From positions 2,472,907 to 2,496,906 of the forward strand of contig NZ_CP096270.1 of assembly GCF_023204835.1 (NCBI RefSeq): DNA of 24,000 nucleotides, written 5' to 3'. This document shows positions 16,333 through 23,242 of the stretch, piece by piece (position 1 is the stretch's first letter; every line of letters starts with the position of its first letter). The translations under genes were made by a program, and so were the position numbers. Under the pieces are notes generated by a model that saw only the letters and a list, made by a program, of their open reading frames with translations, had not been told where the DNA came from and ran no database searches. Origin of the DNA: Salinarchaeum laminariae. Lineage in GTDB: Archaea; Halobacteriota; Halobacteria; Halobacteriales; Salinarchaeaceae.

Positions 16333-17001
16333 ATGACCGAGAACGATCCAGAAATCGCCGACGGCGGCGTCGCGGAAGGCGCCGAGGCAGGCCAAAGCGA
16401 CGCCCTCGAAGCCGCGATCGCGGAGAACCCCGAGGCGGTCGCCGAGTTCGTCCGCCGGCTCGACGCCGTCAACGAACTGCTCGACGTCGTCGCGCTCGGC
16501 GAGAGCGCGATGACCGACGAGATGGTCACCGAACTCGCCGGAACGGGCGCCACGCTCGCGGAGTCCGCCGACGGCCTCGCGACTGAGGAAACCGTCGCAC
16601 TCGCCGAAACCGTCGGCGACAACGGCGAGGAACTCGGGGACGCGCTGGAGACAATGCTCGAACTCCAGCGGGCGGGCACGCTCGACGACCTCGCGGAGCT
16701 GGCGTCGATCGCCTCGCTGGCCACCGCCGCGCTCGACGACGAGATGGTCCGCTCGCTCGCGGCGATGGGCGGATCGCTGGGCGAGGTCGCCGACACGGCT
16801 GCGGCGCCGGACACCAGAGACGGCATCGAGACGATGCTCGAGGGGATCGGCGAGGCCCAGCGCGCGGAGCCCGAACCCGTCGGCGCGATCGGGATGGCGA
16901 GGGCGATGCGCGACCCCGAAGTGAAGTACGGGCTGGGCTACGTGCTAGCCATGGCACGAGCGATCGGTCGAGCACGCGCAGCGGACGCATCGTCGCAATG
17001 A
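16333..17001 (+). CDS. DUF1641-domain protein (frequent partner of SQR/NDH-2-like flavoproteins)
   Basis: The ORF starts 3 nt after the SQR stop. It is an acidic helical protein ending in 'GAIGMARAMRDPEVKYGLGYVLAMARAIG', the DUF1641 C-terminal signature as I recall it. Its stop overlaps the next ATG (ATGA at 16998-17001). Confidence 0.72.
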   Translation: MTENDPEIADGGVAEGAEAGQSDALEAAIAENPEAVAEFVRRLDAVNELLDVVALGESAMTDEMVTELAGTGATLAESADGLATEETVALAETVGDNGEELGDALETMLELQRAGTLDDLAELASIASLATAALDDEMVRSLAAMGGSLGEVADTAAAPDTRDGIETMLEGIGEAQRAEPEPVGAIGMARAMRDPEVKYGLGYVLAMARAIGRARAADASSQ

Positions 17002-18149
17002 CGTCGCGAGATCCACGCGGGACGGGCGAGGCGATGACGCCGCTGGAGTTGCGCGCCGACGTCCCCGCGCTGCAGGATGGCGCGTACTTCAACTTCGGCG
17101 CGCACGGCCCGAGCCCGCGGTTCGTCGTCGAGGCAGCCGAAGCTTTCATCGAGAGCCACGAGTACGAGTCGCCGATCGTCGACGACCCCTACGAGACGGC
17201 GTTCGACACGTTCGAGATGGTCCGCGAGACGGTCGCCGACTTCGTCGGTGCCGAGGCCGAGGAGATCGCGCTCACGGAGAGTACCACCGCCGGCATCAAC
17301 GCGATCGCCGGGGCGATCGACTGGGAGCCATGGGACGTGGTGGTCCGCACCGACCTCGAACACCCCGCCGGGATCCTCGCGTGGCAGCGCCTCGAACGCG
17401 AGGGCGTCGAGGTCCGGGTCGTGGAGACCACCGACGGCCGCGTCGATCCCGAGGAGTTCGCCGAGGCCGTCGAGGGCGCGGACCTCGCCTGCTTCAGCGC
17501 GCTCACCTGGACCCACGGCACCCGCCTGCCGGTCGCGGAGCTGGTCGACATCGCCAACGACGCCGGCGCGTTCACGCTGGTCGACGCGGTGCAGGTCCCC
17601 GGCCAGACCGAACTGGACGTTTCGGAGTGGGGCGCCGACGCCGTCGCAGCCGCTGGCCACAAGTGGCTCCTCGGACTCTGGGGCGGCGGCTTCCTCTACG
17701 TCGACCGCGAGGTCGCCGAGGAGCTTGAACCCCGGACCGTCGGCTACCGGAGCGTCGAGAAGCCCACCGCCGAGCCGTTCGCGTTCGAACCCGGCGCGAA
17801 GCGATTCGAGGTCGGCTCCGCGAACCCGGCGTCACACGTCGCATTGGCGGAAGCGATCGAAGCGATCGAAGAGGTCGGCGTGGATCGAATGGAAGAGCGG
17901 ACGCTCGACCTGGCGGGTCGACTTGCCGACGGGGTGCCGGAGGAGCAGCTATTGAGTCCTGCCGAGCCGGAGTCAGGGTTGGTGACGATCGACGTTCCCG
18001 ATCCCGAGGCGACGGTGGAGCGGCTCGCGGACGAGGGGATCGTCGTTCGACCGCTGCCATTTCCGGACGCTATTCGGGCGTCGGTTCACGCAGTGAACAC
18101 GGCGGAGGAGGTTGATCGGTTGTTGGGCGGGCTGGAGGATGAGTACTAA
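16998..18149 (+). CDS. class-V aminotransferase-fold PLP enzyme (cysteine-desulfurase-like but lacking the catalytic Cys)
   Basis: 383 aa. It has 'TESTTAGIN', 'LVDAVQ', the PLP lysine in 'AAGHKWLLG' and a C-terminal 'IRASVHAVNTAEEVDRL', as in NifS/SufS/CsdA-type enzymes. There is no Cys anywhere C-terminal of the PLP Lys; the only Cys is in 'DLACFSAL'. The alternative start M13 is at 17034. Confidence 0.78.
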   Translation: MTSRDPRGTGEAMTPLELRADVPALQDGAYFNFGAHGPSPRFVVEAAEAFIESHEYESPIVDDPYETAFDTFEMVRETVADFVGAEAEEIALTESTTAGINAIAGAIDWEPWDVVVRTDLEHPAGILAWQRLEREGVEVRVVETTDGRVDPEEFAEAVEGADLACFSALTWTHGTRLPVAELVDIANDAGAFTLVDAVQVPGQTELDVSEWGADAVAAAGHKWLLGLWGGGFLYVDREVAEELEPRTVGYRSVEKPTAEPFAFEPGAKRFEVGSANPASHVALAEAIEAIEEVGVDRMEERTLDLAGRLADGVPEEQLLSPAEPESGLVTIDVPDPEATVERLADEGIVVRPLPFPDAIRASVHAVNTAEEVDRLLGGLEDEY

Positions 18150-18167: not shown

Positions 18168-18422
18168 AGTGGCTCTAATTGGCTTTCAGTCGCTGACGGT
18201 CCTACCGGATCGTACTGAATCGCAGGTGCGTATCTAACACGCCATCCGTTTTCATATGAGGTATGTCGGTGAATCCTTTTGGAGGGGAAACGAGGTCAGA
18301 TCTTCTCATGAGTATTGCTCATTCCTCGCCAACCAGTTTGCTTCAACTGTTTCCTGTTGGGAGGGGGTCGATTGGCTTCAAGGGATCAGATTAATGTATT
18401 TCAAAGGGCCAATCATACTGAA

Positions 18423-19187
18423 ATGCTCCCCTTCGACGTTACCTGGGGTCAGATTTCAATAGCTAGCGTAGCGGGAGCTATTCTGATATTTGCTGTGAAT
18501 AAACGATGGGATCTTTGGTCGCGTAGAAGAGAACGTAAACGTCAACAAACTCTCAAATGGCACCGGGAGGTGCAAGAGCTGTTTGCTGAGGTGATCTCAG
18601 TGGGCCGTCGTATGCGAACGTCTCGGACACGCGACGAAGAACTGATTCAAGAACTGATCCCAACAACTATTAAACTCGATTCGAAGGTAAATTCTCTGCC
18701 TATTTGGGTGCGATTGAGGGTGAGTAGCGAGGTTCAAAATCGTGTCATCGCAGCAGCCGGGATGGCGTACCATTTGGCCCATCTGCCCCAACCAGACCGA
18801 AATGAAGATTCGGTCGCTGGAATGATGTATCATTTATACAGGGTTGCAGACTTGGTGGACGCTGACACGGATGTCGAGGTTGGAGAGCTGATTGAACTGA
18901 TTGGTGGATTAGATCCTTCCGGTACTCCTGATCTGTCGGAAGAGAAAGCCGATCAGATTTTGCAAGAATTCGAAGACGAATCACAGCGGCGAATGGAAAC
19001 TTGGGAAGAGATGACTGTTGACGAATTGATGGACCTCCCATGGGAGAAAGTCGACCAAATTCTTTCCGAGCGCGATCGAGTGAAGTTGATTAGACAATGT
19101 ATTGAAGCCTATTACGAACAGGCACTAATTGAAAAACCACGGGAAGCTCGGAACGCGATACAGGAATCGGAGCAAGCATATGCGTGA
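18423..19187 (+). CDS. orphan N-terminally membrane-anchored helical protein
   Basis: The ATG at 18423 gives MLPFDVTWGQISIASVAGAILIFAVNKRWDLWSRRRERKRQ... This is one TM helix followed by a positive patch and then about 200 aa of acidic helical sequence. The track start at 18315 is a TTG. A TATA-like 'ttaatgtatttc' lies at 18391-18402. I recognise no family. Confidence 0.55.
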   Translation: MLPFDVTWGQISIASVAGAILIFAVNKRWDLWSRRRERKRQQTLKWHREVQELFAEVISVGRRMRTSRTRDEELIQELIPTTIKLDSKVNSLPIWVRLRVSSEVQNRVIAAAGMAYHLAHLPQPDRNEDSVAGMMYHLYRVADLVDADTDVEVGELIELIGGLDPSGTPDLSEEKADQILQEFEDESQRRMETWEEMTVDELMDLPWEKVDQILSERDRVKLIRQCIEAYYEQALIEKPREARNAIQESEQAYA

Positions 19188-19448
19188 ACTGAATCGGTGA
19201 CACTAGTCCTTTCGTATATGGTTTCTCAATGCCCGCCACTCCTCAACGAGATTCCTCGTACGATCAAGTAGAATCTCCGAGGATTTGATCAGAATGGATG
19301 AATTGAGGATCAGCACGAATATTCGCCAACTCCAAAGGCAGATGATCAATCAGGTTTGACTGATTCATTTGTTGGACTCGGTTTTTGAAGTTTCAGAGGC
19401 CATCAGGGCCGATAATCTAGTAAAATGCCACGGTTTCCCTGGCATTGT

Positions 19449-20603
19449 TCAGGAAGCGAAGTCTATTTCTTGATCTGAATAGTTGAGAGCTGTGTCAAGA
19501 GTCATCGACAAGAATAGTAATGATATTGTAGCGATATTTTCATCGAAGAACGCGACGGGATCGCCATGCATGATCGCATTTCTATGGGCATAAAATGATT
19601 CAAGATTATTGATAAAATTTCCAGTGGAAACCCCATACCATTCAACGTGAAGTTCAGCCAGTTTGTTACGTTTGGTGTCCCATTTATAAACTGGGTCTCC
19701 AAATCGGTTCATGTAATCAGGTGATACATTTTCCTGCTCACAAAGCCAATGCATTATGCCGTCCTGAACACTGATAAAGCTAAAAACCGGTGTTAAAAAC
19801 CTTCCATCCCTGAACTCTTCGATTCCCCTTTCTAACCGGTTGTAATAAGGGTCTAATGGATGTTCCTGAATATTAGCCATGCCATTTAGTACTTCGTCAA
19901 GATACTGAGTCCCAGCAGCCTGAGCAACAGAATTTAATTGGATAATTTCTGGATCGTAATTAGAAGGTTCTTCAAAGTTAGATATCCCCTCTTCAATGGC
20001 CTCCCGGACCTCTCTGGCAAACTCTTGAAGTTGTTGAATAAGCGGTCTAAACTGATCTATCATGTCTTGAAACATCGACGTCAAGTTGGGCGCGACAGGT
20101 TGGATTGATTCAGCAACTTGCCTACTAACCTGATTTACGGTTTCATGAATGGCATCGACCGACTGTACAACACCCTCTGGATATTTTACGCCTTCAAATA
20201 TCGAGACCGATCTCAAATCTATCTCCCGATTTTCTTCTGCCAGTGTCATCCCCACAAATTCACGTATTGACATCCTGACCTCCTCGGCTGAAGATTCTGA
20301 TTCATCCACAATTTCGTCGAAAGAATTCTGGCCGCCATAGAACTGGACTCCACTAAATATTGCCTCCCAGGTAACTCTAGCTGTTGGATAATTCACTAAT
20401 TTCACATATTGGATAACAAGCTCCCTTGTGTCAGAACGACTAATATCGAACTCTCTGGCAGCCTCTGATAGAGTCGAATCACGGTAAAACTCTCCAACCT
20501 CCTTGATTTGCTCGCATTGGTCGAACGAAATTTCATCGCGGAGCTCCTCCCTCTTCTCAACCTCCTCTTCAACAATCTCACGTAAACGACTCACATCCGA
20601 CAT
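19449..20603 (-). CDS. orphan protein with N-terminal HTH-like segment and C-terminal HEPN-like (R-x4-H) domain
   Basis: 384 aa with an ATG at 20603. Residues ~43-66, 'STLSEAAREFDISRSDTRELVIQY', look like a helix-turn-helix. The C-terminal ~130 aa are helical and carry 'FYAHRNAIMHGD'. R341 is codon 19581-19583 and H346 is codon 19566-19568, both checked on the DNA. A final hydrophobic helix follows. This is the RNxxxH(G) arrangement of HEPN RNase domains. Confidence 0.6.
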   Translation of the reverse strand: MSDVSRLREIVEEEVEKREELRDEISFDQCEQIKEVGEFYRDSTLSEAAREFDISRSDTRELVIQYVKLVNYPTARVTWEAIFSGVQFYGGQNSFDEIVDESESSAEEVRMSIREFVGMTLAEENREIDLRSVSIFEGVKYPEGVVQSVDAIHETVNQVSRQVAESIQPVAPNLTSMFQDMIDQFRPLIQQLQEFAREVREAIEEGISNFEEPSNYDPEIIQLNSVAQAAGTQYLDEVLNGMANIQEHPLDPYYNRLERGIEEFRDGRFLTPVFSFISVQDGIMHWLCEQENVSPDYMNRFGDPVYKWDTKRNKLAELHVEWYGVSTGNFINNLESFYAHRNAIMHGDPVAFFDENIATISLLFLSMTLDTALNYSDQEIDFAS

Positions 20604-20627
20604 CGTCCCGAAAACGCACTGTGAAGG

Positions 20628-20633
20628 TTAAAA
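20628..20633 (-). promoter_or_regulatory. TATA-like TTTTAA box 25-30 nt upstream of the HEPN-like gene ATG
   Basis: The reverse strand reads 'ggattttaaccttcacagtgcgttttcgggacgATG'. The spacing fits a leaderless archaeal transcript. Confidence 0.35.
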
Positions 20634-20862
20634 TCCAATGGGTCCCTGTAGAACTAATTGAGGCCATTGTCATTGCTATTTACTATTCAAATAATAATCA
20701 TAAAGCTCCTTCTCAGCGAGTATCACAAATCCGTCCAAATGACATCGGTCTTCAACGGCGATCGCAAGACGGCTGCATCTGATCAGCAGGGGCGCCGCTC
20801 GCGGGCCAAATCGCCGAGAGAAGTAAACGGTGGGGCTGGTCAGGCAACGTGTACAGCGCGAT

Positions 20863-21498
20863 TCAGACCAGCAACTGCACGTCCGACTCGGCCATGTGCT
20901 CGAGCGCGGTCGCCGCGCCGACTCCCACTGTGACGTCGTCGTAGAAATCGTCCTCGTCGTAGTCCATCAGCTCGATCGTCATCTGGCAGGCCTGCATCTC
21001 GACGCCCTGCTCGAGGGACACTTCGATGAGTTCCTCGATCGTCGCGGTGTTGTTGTCGTCGATCTTCTTCGCCATCATCTTCGTCGTGACCCGGTCCATG
21101 CCCGGGAGCGCGGCGAGCGCGTTCGGGACGGGCATGTTCGGGTTGCCGACGGAGGACAGCTGGAGGTTCGAGGACTTCTCCTCGTGGAGGATGTCCAGGC
21201 CCCAGAACGTGTGGAAGACCACGACGTCCCAGCCGAAGGCGGCCGCGGTGCTCGCGAGGATCAGCGGCGGGTACGCCATGTCGAGCGTGCCCTTCGTCGC
21301 GATGATCGTCATCTTCATCGGCCCGTCGTCGACCTCGCGCTCGAGCGTCGTGACCGTATCCTCCAGTTCCTCGATGCGGGCCTGTAGCTCCGCCTCGGTC
21401 TGTGGGACGTCCGCCCCGTCCGCCGTCGGGGCCTCGTCGCCACTCGCGGCGGCCTTCTCCTCGGGCGTCTCCTCCGTCTCGGCTGCGTCGGTGCTCAT
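20863..21498 (-). CDS. DsrE/DsrF-like sulfur-relay protein (COG2210-type) with a 60-aa acidic coiled-coil N-terminal extension
   Basis: The core 'MKMTIIATKGTLDMAYPPLILASTAAAFGWDVVVFHTFWGLDIL' and 'VEMQACQMTIELM' (conserved Cys) match DsrE-like/COG2210 proteins. The ATG at 21498 directly abuts the TusA stop (21499-21501). The extension is GC3-rich. Confidence 0.78.
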   Translation of the reverse strand: MSTDAAETEETPEEKAAASGDEAPTADGADVPQTEAELQARIEELEDTVTTLEREVDDGPMKMTIIATKGTLDMAYPPLILASTAAAFGWDVVVFHTFWGLDILHEEKSSNLQLSSVGNPNMPVPNALAALPGMDRVTTKMMAKKIDDNNTATIEELIEVSLEQGVEMQACQMTIELMDYDEDDFYDDVTVGVGAATALEHMAESDVQLLV

Positions 21499-21744
21499 CT
21501 ATGCGGTCTTCTCCACGTAGTGTTTGTAGAGGTCGCCGTCCTCGACCTGGTCGAGGAGCGAGACGCCCTTTGTCCCACTCGCCCACCCGTCGATGTCGCT
21601 CATGCTGCCGGAGTCCGTCGAGAGTACCTCGAGGACCTCACCCTCGGCGAGGTCGTCGATCGCGGACTTCGTCTTGACGACCGGCATTGGACACGATGCT
21701 CCCTTCACGTCGAGCGTCTCAGTAACGTCGATTGCGTCTGTCAT
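21499..21744 (-). CDS. TusA-like sulfur-carrier protein (second copy)
   Basis: The ATG at 21744 gives MTDAIDVTETLDVKGASCPMPVVKTKSAIDDL..., with the CPxP motif. The track start at 21792 is a TTG with an AT-rich, atypical N-terminus. Confidence 0.8.
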   Translation of the reverse strand: MTDAIDVTETLDVKGASCPMPVVKTKSAIDDLAEGEVLEVLSTDSGSMSDIDGWASGTKGVSLLDQVEDGDLYKHYVEKTA

Positions 21745-21769
21745 CGGTGAATCACTCCGTTGGTTTGTA

Positions 21770-21793
21770 TTGGAGTTAACGCACAATACCAAG
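21770..21793 (+). promoter_or_regulatory. 24-nt conserved motif copy 2 (TTGGAGTTAACGCACAATACCAAG), 26 nt upstream of the second TusA ATG, on the opposite strand relative to that gene
   Basis: 19 of 24 positions are identical to 14891-14914. It lies in the 250-bp divergent intergenic region between the TusA/DsrE and rhodanese-PDO operons. Confidence 0.5.
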
Positions 21794-21818
21794 GCCGATC
21801 ACTAAAGGATATCGGTTC

Positions 21819-21839
21819 TTGTGCGATCTGCGAACTACT
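21819..21839 (+). promoter_or_regulatory. repeat B: TTGTGCGAT-CTG-CGAACTACT
   Basis: It is identical to 21926-21946 at 18 of 21 positions; only the central 3 nt differ. Its TTGTGCG core is the reverse complement of the CGCACAA core of the 24-nt motif. Confidence 0.5.
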
Positions 21840-21925
21840 GCCCCGTACGAGATATCTAATAATTCTTGCGTATGGGCGTAGTGGCTCATCTGCAACGATC
21901 TCGCCGCGTCTCGCCGATTGCTGTA

Positions 21926-21946
21926 TTGTGCGATTGCCGAACTACT
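21926..21946 (+). promoter_or_regulatory. repeat C: TTGTGCGAT-TGC-CGAACTACT
   Basis: This is a direct repeat of 21819-21839, 107 bp downstream. It ends about 49 nt upstream of the rhodanese-PDO ATG. Confidence 0.5.
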
Positions 21947-21994
21947 ATGCAAACTCTTATGTGCTCGCCTCTGGAACGTGGAGGTACACGACAC

Positions 21995-23242
21995 ATGAAC
22001 GCTGACGACTTCCCCACGCCCGACGTGGCGGTCGAATCGGTCGAACCGGATCAGCTCAAGGCACGCGTCGACGCCGGTGAGGACCTCACCATTCTCGACG
22101 CCCGGATGAGCTCGGATTACGCCGAGTGGCGCATCGACGGCGACGGCGTCGAGTCGATCAACGTCCCCTACTTCGAGTTCCTCGAGGACGAGATCGACGA
22201 GACCGTCTTCGACCAGCTCCCCGAGGACGAGGAGATCGTCGCCCTGTGTGCGAAGGGCGGCGCCAGCGAGTACGTCGCGGGCCGTCTCATCGAGGCAGGC
22301 TACGACGTCGTCCACCTGGAGGACGGGATGAACGGCTGGGCGCGCATCTACGAGCAAGTCGAGGTCAACGACTACGACGGCGCGGGCACGCTCTACCAGT
22401 ACCAGCGGCCCTCCTCGGGCTGTCTCGGCTACCTCCTCGTCGAGGGCGACGAGGCCGCGGTGATCGATCCCCTGCGGGCGTTCACCGATCGATACCTCGA
22501 GGACGCCGAGGCGTTCGGCGCCGACCTCCTGTACGCGATCGACACCCACATTCACGCGGATCACATTTCGGGGGTCCGCGAACTCCACGAGTTCGCGGGC
22601 TCGTCAGGAGCGGAGCGAACTGACGGTGTTCGTGATCTGGACGACGAAGGAGTCGAGGGCGTCATCCCCGCCGCAGCGGTCGACCGCGGCGTCGCGTACG
22701 CCGACGACCTGACGCAGGCCGCGGACGGCGACGAGTTCGCCGTCGGCGACGCGACGATCGAGACGGTCTCCACGCCCGGCCACACGACCGGGATGACCTC
22801 CTACCTCGTCGACGACAGCCTGCTCGCGACCGGCGACGGCCTGTTCATCGAGAGCGTCGCGCGCCCCGACCTCGAAGAGGGCGACGACGGTGCGCCCGAC
22901 GCTGCCCGGATGCTCTACGAGTCGCTCCAGGAGCGCGTCCTCACGCTGCCCGACGAGACGCTCGTCGGCGGCGCGCACTTCAGCGACGCGGCAGTGCCGG
23001 CCGACGACGGGACCTACACCGCTCCGATCGGTGACCTGAAAGAGCGCATGGACGCGCTGTCGATGGACGAGGCGGAGTTCGTGGAGCTGATCCTCTCGGA
23101 CATGCCGCCCCGTCCCGCGAACTACGAGTCGATCATCGCGACGAACCTCGGCCAGCAAACCGTCGACGACGAGAAAGCGTTCACGCTCGAACTCGGTCCG
23201 AACAACTGCGCGGCGAGCCAGGAGTCGCTCGCGGGGGACTAA
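21995..23242 (+). CDS. rhodanese-domain / metallo-beta-lactamase-fold persulfide dioxygenase (ETHE1-like) fusion protein
   Basis: The ATG at 21995 is used; the track start at 21866 is a TTG. The N-terminal rhodanese has the active-site loop 'LCAKGGASEY'. The MBL domain has 'THIHADH', 'STPGHTTGM', 'ATGDGLF' and 'GGAHF', the metal ligands and spacing of ETHE1-type persulfide dioxygenases. Confidence 0.8.
   Translation: MNADDFPTPDVAVESVEPDQLKARVDAGEDLTILDARMSSDYAEWRIDGDGVESINVPYFEFLEDEIDETVFDQLPEDEEIVALCAKGGASEYVAGRLIEAGYDVVHLEDGMNGWARIYEQVEVNDYDGAGTLYQYQRPSSGCLGYLLVEGDEAAVIDPLRAFTDRYLEDAEAFGADLLYAIDTHIHADHISGVRELHEFAGSSGAERTDGVRDLDDEGVEGVIPAAAVDRGVAYADDLTQAADGDEFAVGDATIETVSTPGHTTGMTSYLVDDSLLATGDGLFIESVARPDLEEGDDGAPDAARMLYESLQERVLTLPDETLVGGAHFSDAAVPADDGTYTAPIGDLKERMDALSMDEAEFVELILSDMPPRPANYESIIATNLGQQTVDDEKAFTLELGPNNCAASQESLAGD

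What the first reader, a model, noticed from the sequence alone, without database searches (positions are those of the whole stretch)
19449..20603. Orphan HTH + HEPN-like (RNAIMHG) protein: candidate novel toxin/abortive-infection effector
The 384-aa protein ends in a helical domain carrying 'FYAHRNAIMHGD'. R341-x4-H346 was verified on the DNA at 19566-19583. This is the RNxxxH(G) catalytic signature of HEPN RNases such as Abi, toxin-antitoxin and Cas13/Csm6-type enzymes. As in HEPN folds, one more hydrophobic helix follows.

Upstream there is an HTH-like segment (STLSEAAREFDISRSDTRELVIQY) and a long helical linker. I do not recognise the protein as a named family. There is no adjacent MNT-type nucleotidyltransferase antitoxin.

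Location in a foreign islet and a stand-alone promoter fit a defence or addiction function. This is an inference from the motif, not a homology result.
Basis: partly seen in the sequence, partly recalled or inferred. Interest (0 to 1): 0.78.

Follow-up and report, generated by a model that had tools for sequence, protein, structure and literature searches.

The report
New HEPN-like RNase in haloarchaeal islet
A gene inserted by horizontal transfer into the chromosome of the salt-loving archaeon Salinarchaeum laminariae encodes a protein whose C-terminal half looks like an undescribed family of HEPN RNA-cutting enzymes, the kind microbes use as suicide or antiviral toxins; it is a credible but untested defence candidate, not a new kind of system.

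Summary
ORF 19449-20603 (-) encodes 384 aa, and 19566-19583 encodes RNAIMH (R341...H346). The window is from Salinarchaeum laminariae; the protein is WP_248515826.1, "hypothetical".

R341 and H346 are two of only three invariant columns (with Y216) across 56 C-terminal-domain relatives that go down to 13% identity.

An AlphaFold model of this domain (pLDDT 91) has the canonical HEPN secondary-structure layout:
- helix 2 carries an always-acidic residue (D281);
- there is an insert between helices 2 and 3.

The gene lies in a 2.5-kb low-GC insertion, confirmed by comparison with 12 related genomes. It has no conserved partner gene. Its N-terminal, weakly HTH-like domain is modular: most relatives carry a hydrophobic tail instead of HEPN.

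Best reading: a new, rare HEPN-superfamily family, probably a self-regulated stand-alone RNase toxin or defence effector. The RNase activity and the defence role are inferred, not shown.

The parts
19449..20603 (-). Whole gene: 384-aa protein (WP_248515826.1, 'hypothetical protein', Salinarchaeum laminariae). The stop codon is at 19449-19451.
20169..20603 (-). N-terminal domain (aa 1-145). It is all-helical, with pLDDT mostly 83-97 over aa 11-140. It is modular: found in 75 proteins with different C-termini. C30 and G37 are invariant.
20406..20477 (-). HTH-like segment (aa 43-66, STLSEAAREFDISRSDTRELVIQY). It has weak similarity to Sigma70 region 4 and other HTH families.
20019..20168 (-). Helical linker (aa 146-195). 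It has low model confidence (pLDDT <50 for aa 149-192) and varies in length among homologues.
19452..20018 (-). C-terminal HEPN-like domain (aa 196-384). This is the conserved core of the family and also occurs as stand-alone proteins of about 230-270 aa.
19956..19979 (-). Family-specific motif NFxxPxxY (aa 209-216) with invariant Y216 and near-invariant P213. It lies N-terminal to the four-helix core and has no counterpart in the published HEPN definition.
19758..19772 (-). SVQDG (aa 278-282) in predicted helix 2. Position 281 is D or E in 56 of 56 sequences, making it the candidate HEPN helix-2 acidic residue.
19566..19583 (-). R341-N-A-I-M-H346, the Rx4H motif. It sits at the end of predicted helix 3 and the first residue of the following loop, and both residues are invariant.
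20628..20633 (-). TTTTAA at -30 to -25 from the ATG. It is a candidate archaeal TATA box for a leaderless transcript.
   Evidence: The sequence is read directly; the promoter function is inferred.
18200..20740 (.). Low-GC inserted islet of about 2.5 kb holding two convergent genes. It has no tRNA, integrase or flanking direct repeats.
18423..19187 (+). ORF2: 254 aa from the first in-frame ATG before the hydrophobic segment, with an N-terminal hydrophobic helix and no family assignment. It is co-resident in the islet but is not linked to the family elsewhere.

Best explanation
The gene encodes a two-module protein. The C-terminal ~190 residues form a previously unannotated family of the HEPN superfamily. 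By analogy with characterised HEPN enzymes, it is most likely a metal-independent endoribonuclease. In those enzymes two HEPN domains pair so that their Rx4H motifs (here R341/H346, helped by N342 and the helix-2 acidic residue D281) form a composite active site.

The N-terminal ~145 residues form a helical, HTH-like module joined by a flexible helical linker. This module most likely keeps the nuclease off or senses a trigger, as proposed for the N-terminal domains of AbiJ and shown for ligand sensing in ApeA.

The gene is single-gene cargo in a 2.5-kb horizontally acquired insertion. It has its own TATA-like element and no antitoxin. It therefore most likely works as a self-regulated stand-alone toxin or abortive-infection-type effector.

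Shown here: motif invariance, predicted secondary-structure layout, modularity, the insertion, absence of a partner gene.
Inferred: HEPN homology (convergent weak evidence), RNase activity, dimerisation, regulation by the N-terminal domain, a defence role.
For: 1. R341 and H346 are invariant, and together with Y216 they are the only invariant columns in 56 sequences going down to 13% identity. In those 56 sequences the residue after R is N in 37, H in 15, and C, K or S in four, which largely fits the HEPN rule 'mostly N, D or H' (PMC3710099).

2. The AF2 model of the domain is confident (pLDDT 91.4, pTM 0.88). Its helix order matches the canonical HEPN description: helix 1 is aa 251-265; helix 2 is aa 270-290 and carries D281 (D or E in 56/56); an insert (aa 291-326) follows, made of a beta-hairpin and a short helix; helix 3 is aa 327-345 and ends with R341, with H346 the first loop residue; helix 4 is aa 355-383 in this model.

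3. When each member is scanned alone, the only Pfam families hit by more than two members are HEPN_Apea (8) and HEPN_RiboL-PSP (6). There are also hits to Cas_Csm6_HEPN (E 2.8e-4), HEPN_Swt1, HEPN_MAE_28990, HEPN_Cthe2314 and DUF3644. DUF3644 is called a HEPN domain in PMC3710099. In PADLOC, RTasHEPN is hit by 15 members and a Csm6 model by one at E 2.9e-6. For the family consensus, all four best hits are HEPN-containing models, and the two whose matches are longest cover consensus positions 32-152. Every hit whose coordinates I could see covers the helix-3/motif region.

4. Among weak Foldseek hits, HEPN-type structures have some of the best TM-scores: RnlA 6y2p (TMq 0.41) and HI0074 1jog (TMt 0.42).

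5. The N-terminal domain occurs in 75 proteins. 24 have this HEPN-like C-terminus, 2 have a divergent RxxxxHG domain plus wHTH (hhalign E 8e-5, motifs in register), and at least 28 have a strongly hydrophobic C-terminal tail. One N-terminal module with interchangeable effector-like modules is the pattern described for AbiJ N-terminal domains.

6. The islet is an insertion. In 12 related genomes the flanking aminotransferase and DsrE genes are 199-531 bp apart, against 2.7 kb here. Gene GC is 0.43 against 0.65 for the host. One homologue lies next to an integrase and an HNH protein.

7. No partner gene is conserved in 9 distinct homologue contexts. Solo HEPN defence proteins are known: HepS (PMC13043305) and ApeA (bioRxiv 10.64898/2026.01.26.701840).
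Against: - No single homology test is significant. Foldseek against the PDB gave best E 0.46 for the domain and 1.0 for the whole protein. The profile-versus-PDB sequence search found no HEPN. hhalign against RnlA found nothing. No Pfam hit reaches its gathering score.
- The weak HEPN hits could be driven largely by the short RNxxxHG motif plus helical periodicity.
- The helix-2 acidic residue is not in the usual Ex3[KR] form.
- I could not read model coordinates, so the proximity of D281 and Y216 to the motif is unverified.
- Most homologue neighbourhoods are not recognisable defence islands. No relatives were found in IMG/VR, PHROGs or BFVD.
- The putative recognition helix of the HTH is acidic in many members, so DNA binding is doubtful.
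- Activity, toxicity and phenotype are all untested.
Confidence: 0.55

Rival explanations
1. It is a helical-bundle domain that is not homologous to HEPN and happens to carry a conserved HRNxIMHG motif. It would be a different enzyme or a phosphate/nucleotide-binding module whose resemblance to HEPN is convergent or superficial.
For: All HEPN matches are sub-threshold. Foldseek found nothing significant, and its top-ranked weak hits are generic helical bundles such as PduO-type adenosyltransferases, pectin methylesterase inhibitor and Bcl-xL. The family has its own invariant Y216/P213 motif and two extra N-terminal helices that are not part of the HEPN definition.
Against: The motif position (end of helix 3 into the loop), the polar residue after R, the acidic residue in helix 2 and the helix 2-3 insert all match the published HEPN description at once. 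Out of 24,736 Pfam and 5,027 PADLOC models, the recurrent hits are HEPN models from at least ten different families. That is hard to explain through a six-residue motif alone, because some matches span more than 100 residues.
Confidence: 0.2
2. It is a transcription regulator. The N-terminal HTH binds DNA, and the HEPN-like domain is a non-catalytic sensor or dimerisation module, as in HEPN domains that have lost nuclease function (MtlR-type or nucleotidyltransferase-associated substrate-binding domains).
For: There are weak HTH-family hits in the N-terminal domain: Sigma70_r4 (best E 2.7e-4), HTH_28, IclR, AbiEi_4 and UPF0122, plus weak Foldseek hits to KorA, ArdK and UPF0122. Sibling proteins P0095 and P0102 add a C-terminal wHTH. 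PMC3710099 notes non-catalytic HEPN domains.
Against: According to PMC3710099 the non-catalytic HEPN groups have lost the Rx4-6H motif entirely or partly. Here R and H are the most conserved residues of the family. The C-terminal domain also exists without any HTH module, and the N-terminal module is more often joined to a hydrophobic tail. Neither fact fits a plain DNA-binding regulator.
Confidence: 0.15
3. It is the toxin of a two-gene toxin-antitoxin or toxin-immunity pair with the convergent islet gene ORF2 (18423-19187).
For: The two genes share the same low-GC insertion and presumably arrived together.
Against: ORF2 has no homologue in any of the nine distinct homologue contexts (17 loci, L001-L017) that carry family members. 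No family member is encoded near any of the three ORF2 homologues whose contigs were examined (four loci, L098-L101). The genes are convergent, not co-transcribed. ORF2 is a predicted membrane-anchored protein.
Confidence: 0.05

Closest known systems
HEPN superfamily as defined by Anantharaman et al. 2013 (PMC3710099)
   Same: [quoted passage not shown] A conserved acidic residue in helix 2. An insert between helices 2 and 3. A final long helix. Carried on a mobile islet.
   Different: It matches no existing HEPN family model above threshold. The acidic residue sits in SxQDG rather than Ex3[KR]. It has an extra invariant NFxxPxxY motif and two helices in front of the core. It is found mainly in haloarchaeal isolates and metagenome contigs, and is rare: 129 cluster representatives among 1.84 billion.
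ApeA / Pfam HEPN_Apea (PF18739)
   Same: This is the Pfam model hit by the most family members (8 of 56, best E 0.0021). ApeA is a single-protein HEPN abortive-infection system that cleaves tRNA anticodon loops and is switched on by a ligand-binding pocket outside the catalytic centre (bioRxiv 10.64898/2026.01.26.701840). That is the same 'solo HEPN plus sensor' logic proposed here.
   Different: The hits are below the gathering score (24.4 bits). The ApeA N-terminal domain (ApeA-NTD1) is described as about 300 aa and mostly beta strands. The N-terminal domain here is about 145 aa and all-helical.
AbiJ-type proteins (variable N-terminal domain + C-terminal HEPN)
   Same: The architecture matches: an N-terminal domain of about 100-160 aa fused to HEPN, with the same N-terminal domain also fused to other effector modules, and versions that lack it. 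PMC3710099 proposes that these N-terminal domains act as sensors and/or intramolecular antitoxins.
   Different: No sequence similarity to AbiJ or AbiJ-NTD Pfam models was detected in any scan. The alternative partner here is a hydrophobic tail rather than nucleases, kinases or TIR domains. AbiJ is listed as bacterial.
HepS, 'HEPN Solo' defence protein of prophage Gifsy-1 (PMC13043305)
   Same: A stand-alone HEPN protein with a canonical Rx4-6H motif, no antitoxin, carried on a mobile element, and kept inactive until triggered.
   Different: HepS homologues were defined as 250 aa or shorter with no extra domain. HepS is a tetramer triggered by a phage tail-tip protein. The protein here has an added N-terminal module and linker, and no virus link was found.
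HepT/MntA (HEPN-MNT) type II toxin-antitoxin systems
   Same: A HEPN RNase toxin with an Rx4-6H motif (PMC4621449, PMC7641770).
   Different: There is no adjacent MNT nucleotidyltransferase here or in any homologue locus. The protein is much larger and has two modules.
Csm6/Csx1 CARF-HEPN CRISPR ancillary RNases
   Same: A sensor domain joined through a helical region to a C-terminal HEPN. Several PADLOC CARF_HEPN and Csm6 models give the longest weak alignments.
   Different: No Pfam CARF-domain model was hit. The PADLOC CARF_HEPN matches whose coordinates were shown fall in the C-terminal part of those models. No cas genes were seen next to the gene here or in the homologue loci, and no CRISPR-like repeat array was found in the window.

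Membership tests
HEPN superfamily | Conserved Rx4-6H motif | tested here: met
   R341 and H346 are present in 26 of 27 homologues and invariant in the 56-sequence domain alignment.
HEPN superfamily | The residue immediately after R is polar, mostly N, D or H | tested here: met
   Across the 56 sequences it is N in 37, H in 15, C in 2, and K and S in one each. The rule is from PMC3710099.
HEPN superfamily | [quoted passage not shown] | tested here: met
   In the AF2 model (pLDDT 91.4) helix 3 is domain residues 132-150. R146 is inside its last turn and H151 is the first loop residue. This is a predicted structure, not a solved one.
HEPN superfamily | [quoted passage not shown] | tested here: inconclusive
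HEPN superfamily | Second conserved acidic residue in helix 2 (typically Ex3[KR]), close to the motif | tested here: inconclusive
   Position 281 in predicted helix 2 is D or E in 56/56.
HEPN superfamily | Significant profile match to a HEPN family | tested here: inconclusive
   There are convergent sub-threshold hits to seven Pfam models that are, or overlap, HEPN families and about ten PADLOC HEPN-containing models, the best being one member against Csm6 at E 2.9e-6. None reaches a Pfam gathering score. The profile-versus-PDB sequence search and hhalign against RnlA were negative.
HEPN superfamily | Metal-independent RNase activity dependent on R and H; dimeric composite active site | not testable with these tools
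   This needs biochemistry or a multimer model.
HEPN-MNT (HepT/MntA) toxin-antitoxin | Adjacent minimal nucleotidyltransferase (MNT) antitoxin gene | tested here: not met
   There is no such gene in the islet or next to any homologue. The neighbours are unrelated to each other.
AbiJ family | Sequence membership in the AbiJ HEPN or AbiJ-NTD models | tested here: not met
   No AbiJ-related Pfam or PADLOC model appears in any scan. Only the architectural logic is shared.
Csm6/Csx1 (CARF-HEPN) | N-terminal CARF domain and CRISPR-cas association | tested here: not met
   The N-terminal domain gives only weak HTH-type hits. No Pfam CARF-domain model was hit, and the PADLOC CARF_HEPN matches whose coordinates were shown fall in the C-terminal part of those models. 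No cas gene was seen next to the gene here or in the fetched homologue loci, and no CRISPR-like array in the window.
Helix-turn-helix DNA-binding domains (N-terminal module) | Significant match to an HTH family or fold | tested here: inconclusive
   Sigma70_r4 scores E 0.0071 for the query's N-terminal domain and best E 2.7e-4 among members. Other weak hits are HTH_28, IclR, UPF0122 and AbiEi_4. Foldseek probability is 0.57 for UPF0122 at E 2.3. The profile-versus-PDB search found nothing.

The most novel reading that the evidence does not exclude
The N-terminal ~145-aa module defines a previously unrecognised, mainly haloarchaeal sensor or regulator domain. It would be coupled through a flexible helical linker to interchangeable killing modules: a HEPN RNase (as here), a divergent HEPN plus wHTH, or a membrane-inserting hydrophobic tail. 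Together these would make up a new family of single-protein abortive-infection systems in archaea, where almost no such systems have been characterised experimentally.
Probability: 0.3. Interest if true: 0.65.

Novelty: new member of a known kind. Interest (0 to 1): 0.42.

Why it matters
Many HEPN RNases have been shown or predicted to be toxin or defence effectors in bacteria (the abortive-infection families AbiD, AbiF, AbiJ, AbiU2 and AbiV, plus ApeA, HepS, Csm6, Cas13 and HepT). Stand-alone versions are only now being understood mechanistically, and I found no paper describing such a protein in haloarchaea.

This family is absent from Pfam, NCBIfam and PADLOC, so current defence-finders would miss it. 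It comes with clear mutational targets (R341, H346, D281 and the unexplained invariant Y216). It also offers a natural comparison set, because the same N-terminal module is joined either to a HEPN domain or to a hydrophobic tail. Finally, a tractable relative host exists (Haloferax), along with haloviruses for challenge.

If confirmed, it would add a family model for archaeal genome annotation and an entry point to how archaeal single-protein effectors are held in check. If not, it remains one more conserved hypothetical protein.

Tried and rejected
- Direct family assignment. Pfam, NCBIfam, PADLOC and PDB-sequence scans of the whole protein gave nothing significant; the coiled-coil-like linker attracted spurious apolipoprotein, ZorA and ESCRT-III hits.
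- Foldseek of the full model against the PDB. Nothing significant.
- Foldseek of the high-confidence C-terminal model against the PDB and BFVD. Nothing at E <= 0.001.
- Profile of the C-terminal domain against PDB sequences. No HEPN hit; the best was a Bcl-2 homologue at E 0.18.
- Profile search of the 5.8-billion-protein set at E <= 10, hoping to bridge to annotated HEPN families. It returned only family members, none with Pfam annotation.
- hhalign of the domain profile against E. coli RnlA. No alignment.
- Conserved partner gene. Upstream and downstream neighbours from nine distinct contexts were compared all against all, and none are related across loci. I therefore rejected a two-gene system.
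- ORF2 as antitoxin. Rejected.
- Mobile-element hallmarks of the islet. No tRNA, no meaningful direct or inverted repeats at the borders, no integrase, no Rfam element, and no intrinsic-terminator-like sites (that scan is bacterial-type and of limited relevance).
- Recurrent insertion hotspot. Rejected: the larger gap in Halopenitus holds normal-GC genes.
- Viral carriage. No relatives in IMG/VR with the derived patterns or in PHROGs.
- Species-genome scan with the family alignment. It found none.
- A2 was too divergent for the search for related loci.
Full report
**1. The observation**

The minus-strand ORF 19449-20603 starts with ATG and encodes 384 aa. Translating 19566-19583(-) gives RNAIMH, that is R341 to H346. 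The HTH-like string begins at aa 43.

The protein is 100% identical to WP_248515826.1, a 'hypothetical protein' of Salinarchaeum laminariae, on a 3.17-Mb contig.

GC drops from 0.60-0.70 to 0.37-0.50 between about 18200 and 20740.

A single-sequence Rx4H is weak evidence. Composition-matched shuffles contain Rx4H 33% of the time, R[NDH]x3H 4.7% and RNxxxHG 0.09%. The case therefore rests on conservation and structure.

**2. The family**

A search of 5.8 billion proteins found 27 homologues, none annotated.

R341 and H346 are present in 26 of 27. The exception, P0007, diverges before the motif and ends early.

An exhaustive profile search of 1.84 billion cluster representatives found 129 relatives, 48 of them at E <= 1e-30. 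They split into three kinds: full-length proteins, proteins of about 230-270 aa that have only the C-terminal domain, and proteins that share only the N-terminal ~145-200 residues.

In a 56-sequence alignment of the C-terminal domain, with identity to the query down to 13%, the only invariant columns are Y216, R341 and H346. P213, R256, S278, D281, H340, G347 and D354 are at least 90% conserved. In those 56 sequences the residue after R is N in 37, H in 15, and C, K or S in the other four. Position 281 is D or E in all 56.

**3. Is the C-terminal domain HEPN?**

The AF2 model of aa 196-384, built with the 56-sequence alignment, is confident (pLDDT 91.4, pTM 0.88). In full-protein numbering, its elements after two family-specific helices are:
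- helix 251-265;
- helix 270-290, carrying S278 and D281;
- an insert made of a beta-hairpin and a short helix;
- helix 327-345, with R341 in its last turn and H346 as the first loop residue;
- helix 355-383.

This is the canonical layout.

Sequence-profile evidence is individually weak but convergent. Scanning each of the 56 domains separately, the only Pfam families hit by more than two members are HEPN_Apea (8, best E 0.0021) and HEPN_RiboL-PSP (6, best E 0.0026). Single or double hits go to Cas_Csm6_HEPN (E 2.8e-4), HEPN_Swt1 and DUF3644, and to HEPN_MAE_28990 and HEPN_Cthe2314. PMC3710099 calls DUF3644 a HEPN domain.

In PADLOC, RTasHEPN is hit by 15 members, a Csm6 model by one at E 2.9e-6, and several CARF_HEPN models and Cas13-ApeA are also hit. 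The family consensus has RTasHEPN and three CARF_HEPN models as its four best PADLOC hits. The two with the longest matches cover consensus positions 32-152. Every hit whose coordinates were shown includes the helix-3/motif region.

Against this, several tests failed:
- Foldseek against the PDB found nothing at E <= 0.001. HEPN-type chains appear only among the weak hits: RnlA 6y2p TMq 0.41, HI0074 1jog TMt 0.42, and 2q00 TMt 0.58 at rmsd 5.5 A. I recall 2q00 as a HEPN-type protein, but did not verify that.
- The profile-versus-PDB sequence search returned no HEPN.
- hhalign against RnlA failed.
- A permissive profile search of the big database did not bridge to annotated families.

I put HEPN-superfamily membership at roughly 0.75.

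**4. The N-terminal domain and the modular architecture**

The full-length model is confident for most of the first 140 residues (pLDDT mostly 83-97 over aa 11-140) and for the C-terminal domain, but not for aa 149-192 (pLDDT below 50), a helical linker of variable length.

The N-terminal domain gives only scattered weak hits, mostly to HTH or winged-helix families: Sigma70_r4 (best E 2.7e-4), Sigma70_r3, HTH_28, IclR, UPF0122, AbiEi_4 and MCM_WH. There are also weak Foldseek hits to UPF0122, KorA, ArdK and CENP-B. A profile search of PDB sequences found nothing. An HTH-like fold is plausible but DNA binding is unproven, and in many members the putative recognition helix is acidic.

The modularity is more informative. 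Of 75 proteins that carry this domain:
- 24 have the HEPN-like C-terminus;
- 2 (P0095, P0102) have a divergent RxxxxHG domain followed by a wHTH, and hhalign to the domain profile gives E 8e-5 with QLDG and RIDILHG in register;
- at least 28 end in a strongly hydrophobic segment (Kyte-Doolittle at least 1.5 over 19 residues). Inspection of the listed C-termini shows that many of these, and many of the remaining proteins, share a conserved ...FEIPALLVESILSxGxxRxWF...APAVR... tail.

One N-terminal module with interchangeable effector-like C-termini, plus versions lacking it, is exactly what PMC3710099 describes for AbiJ N-terminal domains. That paper suggests they act as sensors and/or intramolecular antitoxins.

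**5. Genomic setting**

The flanks are a host sulfur-trafficking cluster: DUF1641, a class-V aminotransferase, the islet, DsrE-like, TusA and rhodanese-MBL.

In 12 other haloarchaeal genomes the aminotransferase and DsrE genes converge with only 199-531 bp between them. Here the gap is 2.7 kb, and none of the 80 fetched loci contains either islet gene. The islet is therefore a real insertion of about 2.3-2.5 kb.

It carries no tRNA, integrase, border repeats or Rfam element.

TTTTAA lies at -30 to -25 from the ATG (20628-20633). That suits an archaeal TATA box on a leaderless mRNA; the promoter function is my inference, from established knowledge of haloarchaeal promoters.

The only other islet gene, ORF2 (18423-19187, 254 aa, N-terminal hydrophobic helix), has five homologues in the whole database. 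One sits beside a DUF1156/N6-methyltransferase and an SNF2 helicase, another near an integrase. None is near a family member, and no family member is near an ORF2 homologue.

Across nine distinct homologue contexts the neighbours are unrelated to each other. One context has an integrase and an HNH protein. In six of nine contexts the gene's GC is at least 0.04 below its surroundings. No relatives were found in IMG/VR, PHROGs or BFVD.

**6. Mechanism**

Most likely (0.55), this is a self-contained HEPN RNase effector. The HEPN domains would pair to form a composite R/H active site, as is typical for HEPN enzymes (stated in PMC13043305). The N-terminal module and linker would hold the enzyme off or couple it to a trigger. 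Activation would cleave cellular RNA and arrest growth.

This parallels the solo HEPN defence proteins HepS and ApeA, both of which are anticodon nucleases. The target RNA, the trigger, the oligomeric state and the defence role are all inferred.

The rivals are:
- a non-HEPN helical bundle with a convergent motif (0.20);
- an HTH regulator with a non-catalytic HEPN-like sensor domain (0.15), disfavoured because non-catalytic HEPN domains have lost the motif entirely or partly;
- a toxin-antitoxin pair with ORF2 (0.05).

**7. Novelty and verdict**

The family is unannotated and rare, and I found no paper describing it. But it fits inside a well-known kind: HEPN toxins with accessory N-terminal domains.

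I rate it a new member of a known kind, with interest 0.42. The most novel reading not excluded is that the N-terminal module defines a new archaeal single-protein abortive-infection family with swappable HEPN or membrane effectors (probability about 0.3).

Noticed in passing
window 4463-5257 (-), repeats at 4620-5014: A 264-aa ORF with an N-terminal hydrophobic segment, followed by a long acidic tandem repeat (VSKEVEETVSDT...; TRF periods of 24, 36, 60 and 108 nt). It accounts for the GC dip and strong negative GC/AT skew at 4000-5500.
   Followed up: partly
window 18423-19187 (+): ORF2, the second islet gene: 254 aa, with an N-terminal hydrophobic helix then a basic stretch, and no Pfam hit. 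It has only five homologues among 5.8 billion proteins. One (L098) lies between a DUF1156/N6-methyltransferase + SNF2 helicase pair and a 1234-aa unknown protein, which looks like a defence island. Another (L100) is 1.4 kb from a phage-type integrase.
   Followed up: yes
proteins P0065-P0137 (relatives of aa 1-145 of the target): The N-terminal domain is more often joined to a long low-complexity linker and a conserved hydrophobic C-terminal tail (FEIPALLVESILSxGxxRxWF...APAVR) than to the HEPN-like domain. These are possibly membrane-acting siblings. Their gene neighbourhoods were not examined.
   Followed up: partly
proteins P0095 and P0102: Sibling architecture: the N-terminal domain, a divergent HEPN-like domain (RIDILHG / RNDILHG), and a C-terminal winged HTH. 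The wHTH gives weak Pfam hits to HVO_A0114, HTH_24 and MarR_2, and PHROG 2440 'transcriptional regulator' at E 4.4e-7.
   Followed up: partly
proteins P0138, P0143, P0147, P0149, P0151: K/N/I-rich relatives of the C-terminal domain (316-336 aa) whose composition does not look haloarchaeal. Their motifs are degenerate but recognisable (YRNDVVHGE, HRSHNVHAN), so the domain may not be restricted to haloarchaea. Their source organisms are unknown.
   Followed up: no
window 16333-18149 and 20863-23242: The host context is a sulfur-trafficking cluster: DUF1641, a class-V aminotransferase, DsrE-like, TusA and a rhodanese-metallo-beta-lactamase fusion. DsrE, TusA and rhodanese-MBL recur together in nearly all 80 haloarchaeal loci fetched, several of which are on plasmids or megaplasmids.
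   Followed up: partly
window 20604-20660 vs L015 upstream region: The upstream regions of the target and of its 66%-identical homologue P0004 both contain the string CCCATTGG, at different distances from their start codons. This could be a shared regulatory element or a chance match.
   Followed up: no
L028 6594-7781 (Halopenitus malekzadehii): At the equivalent aminotransferase-DsrE junction this genome has about 1.25 kb of normal-GC DNA, encoding a 265-aa multi-pass membrane protein and a 116-aa ORF. The junction varies between genera but is not a low-GC insertion hotspot.
   Followed up: yes
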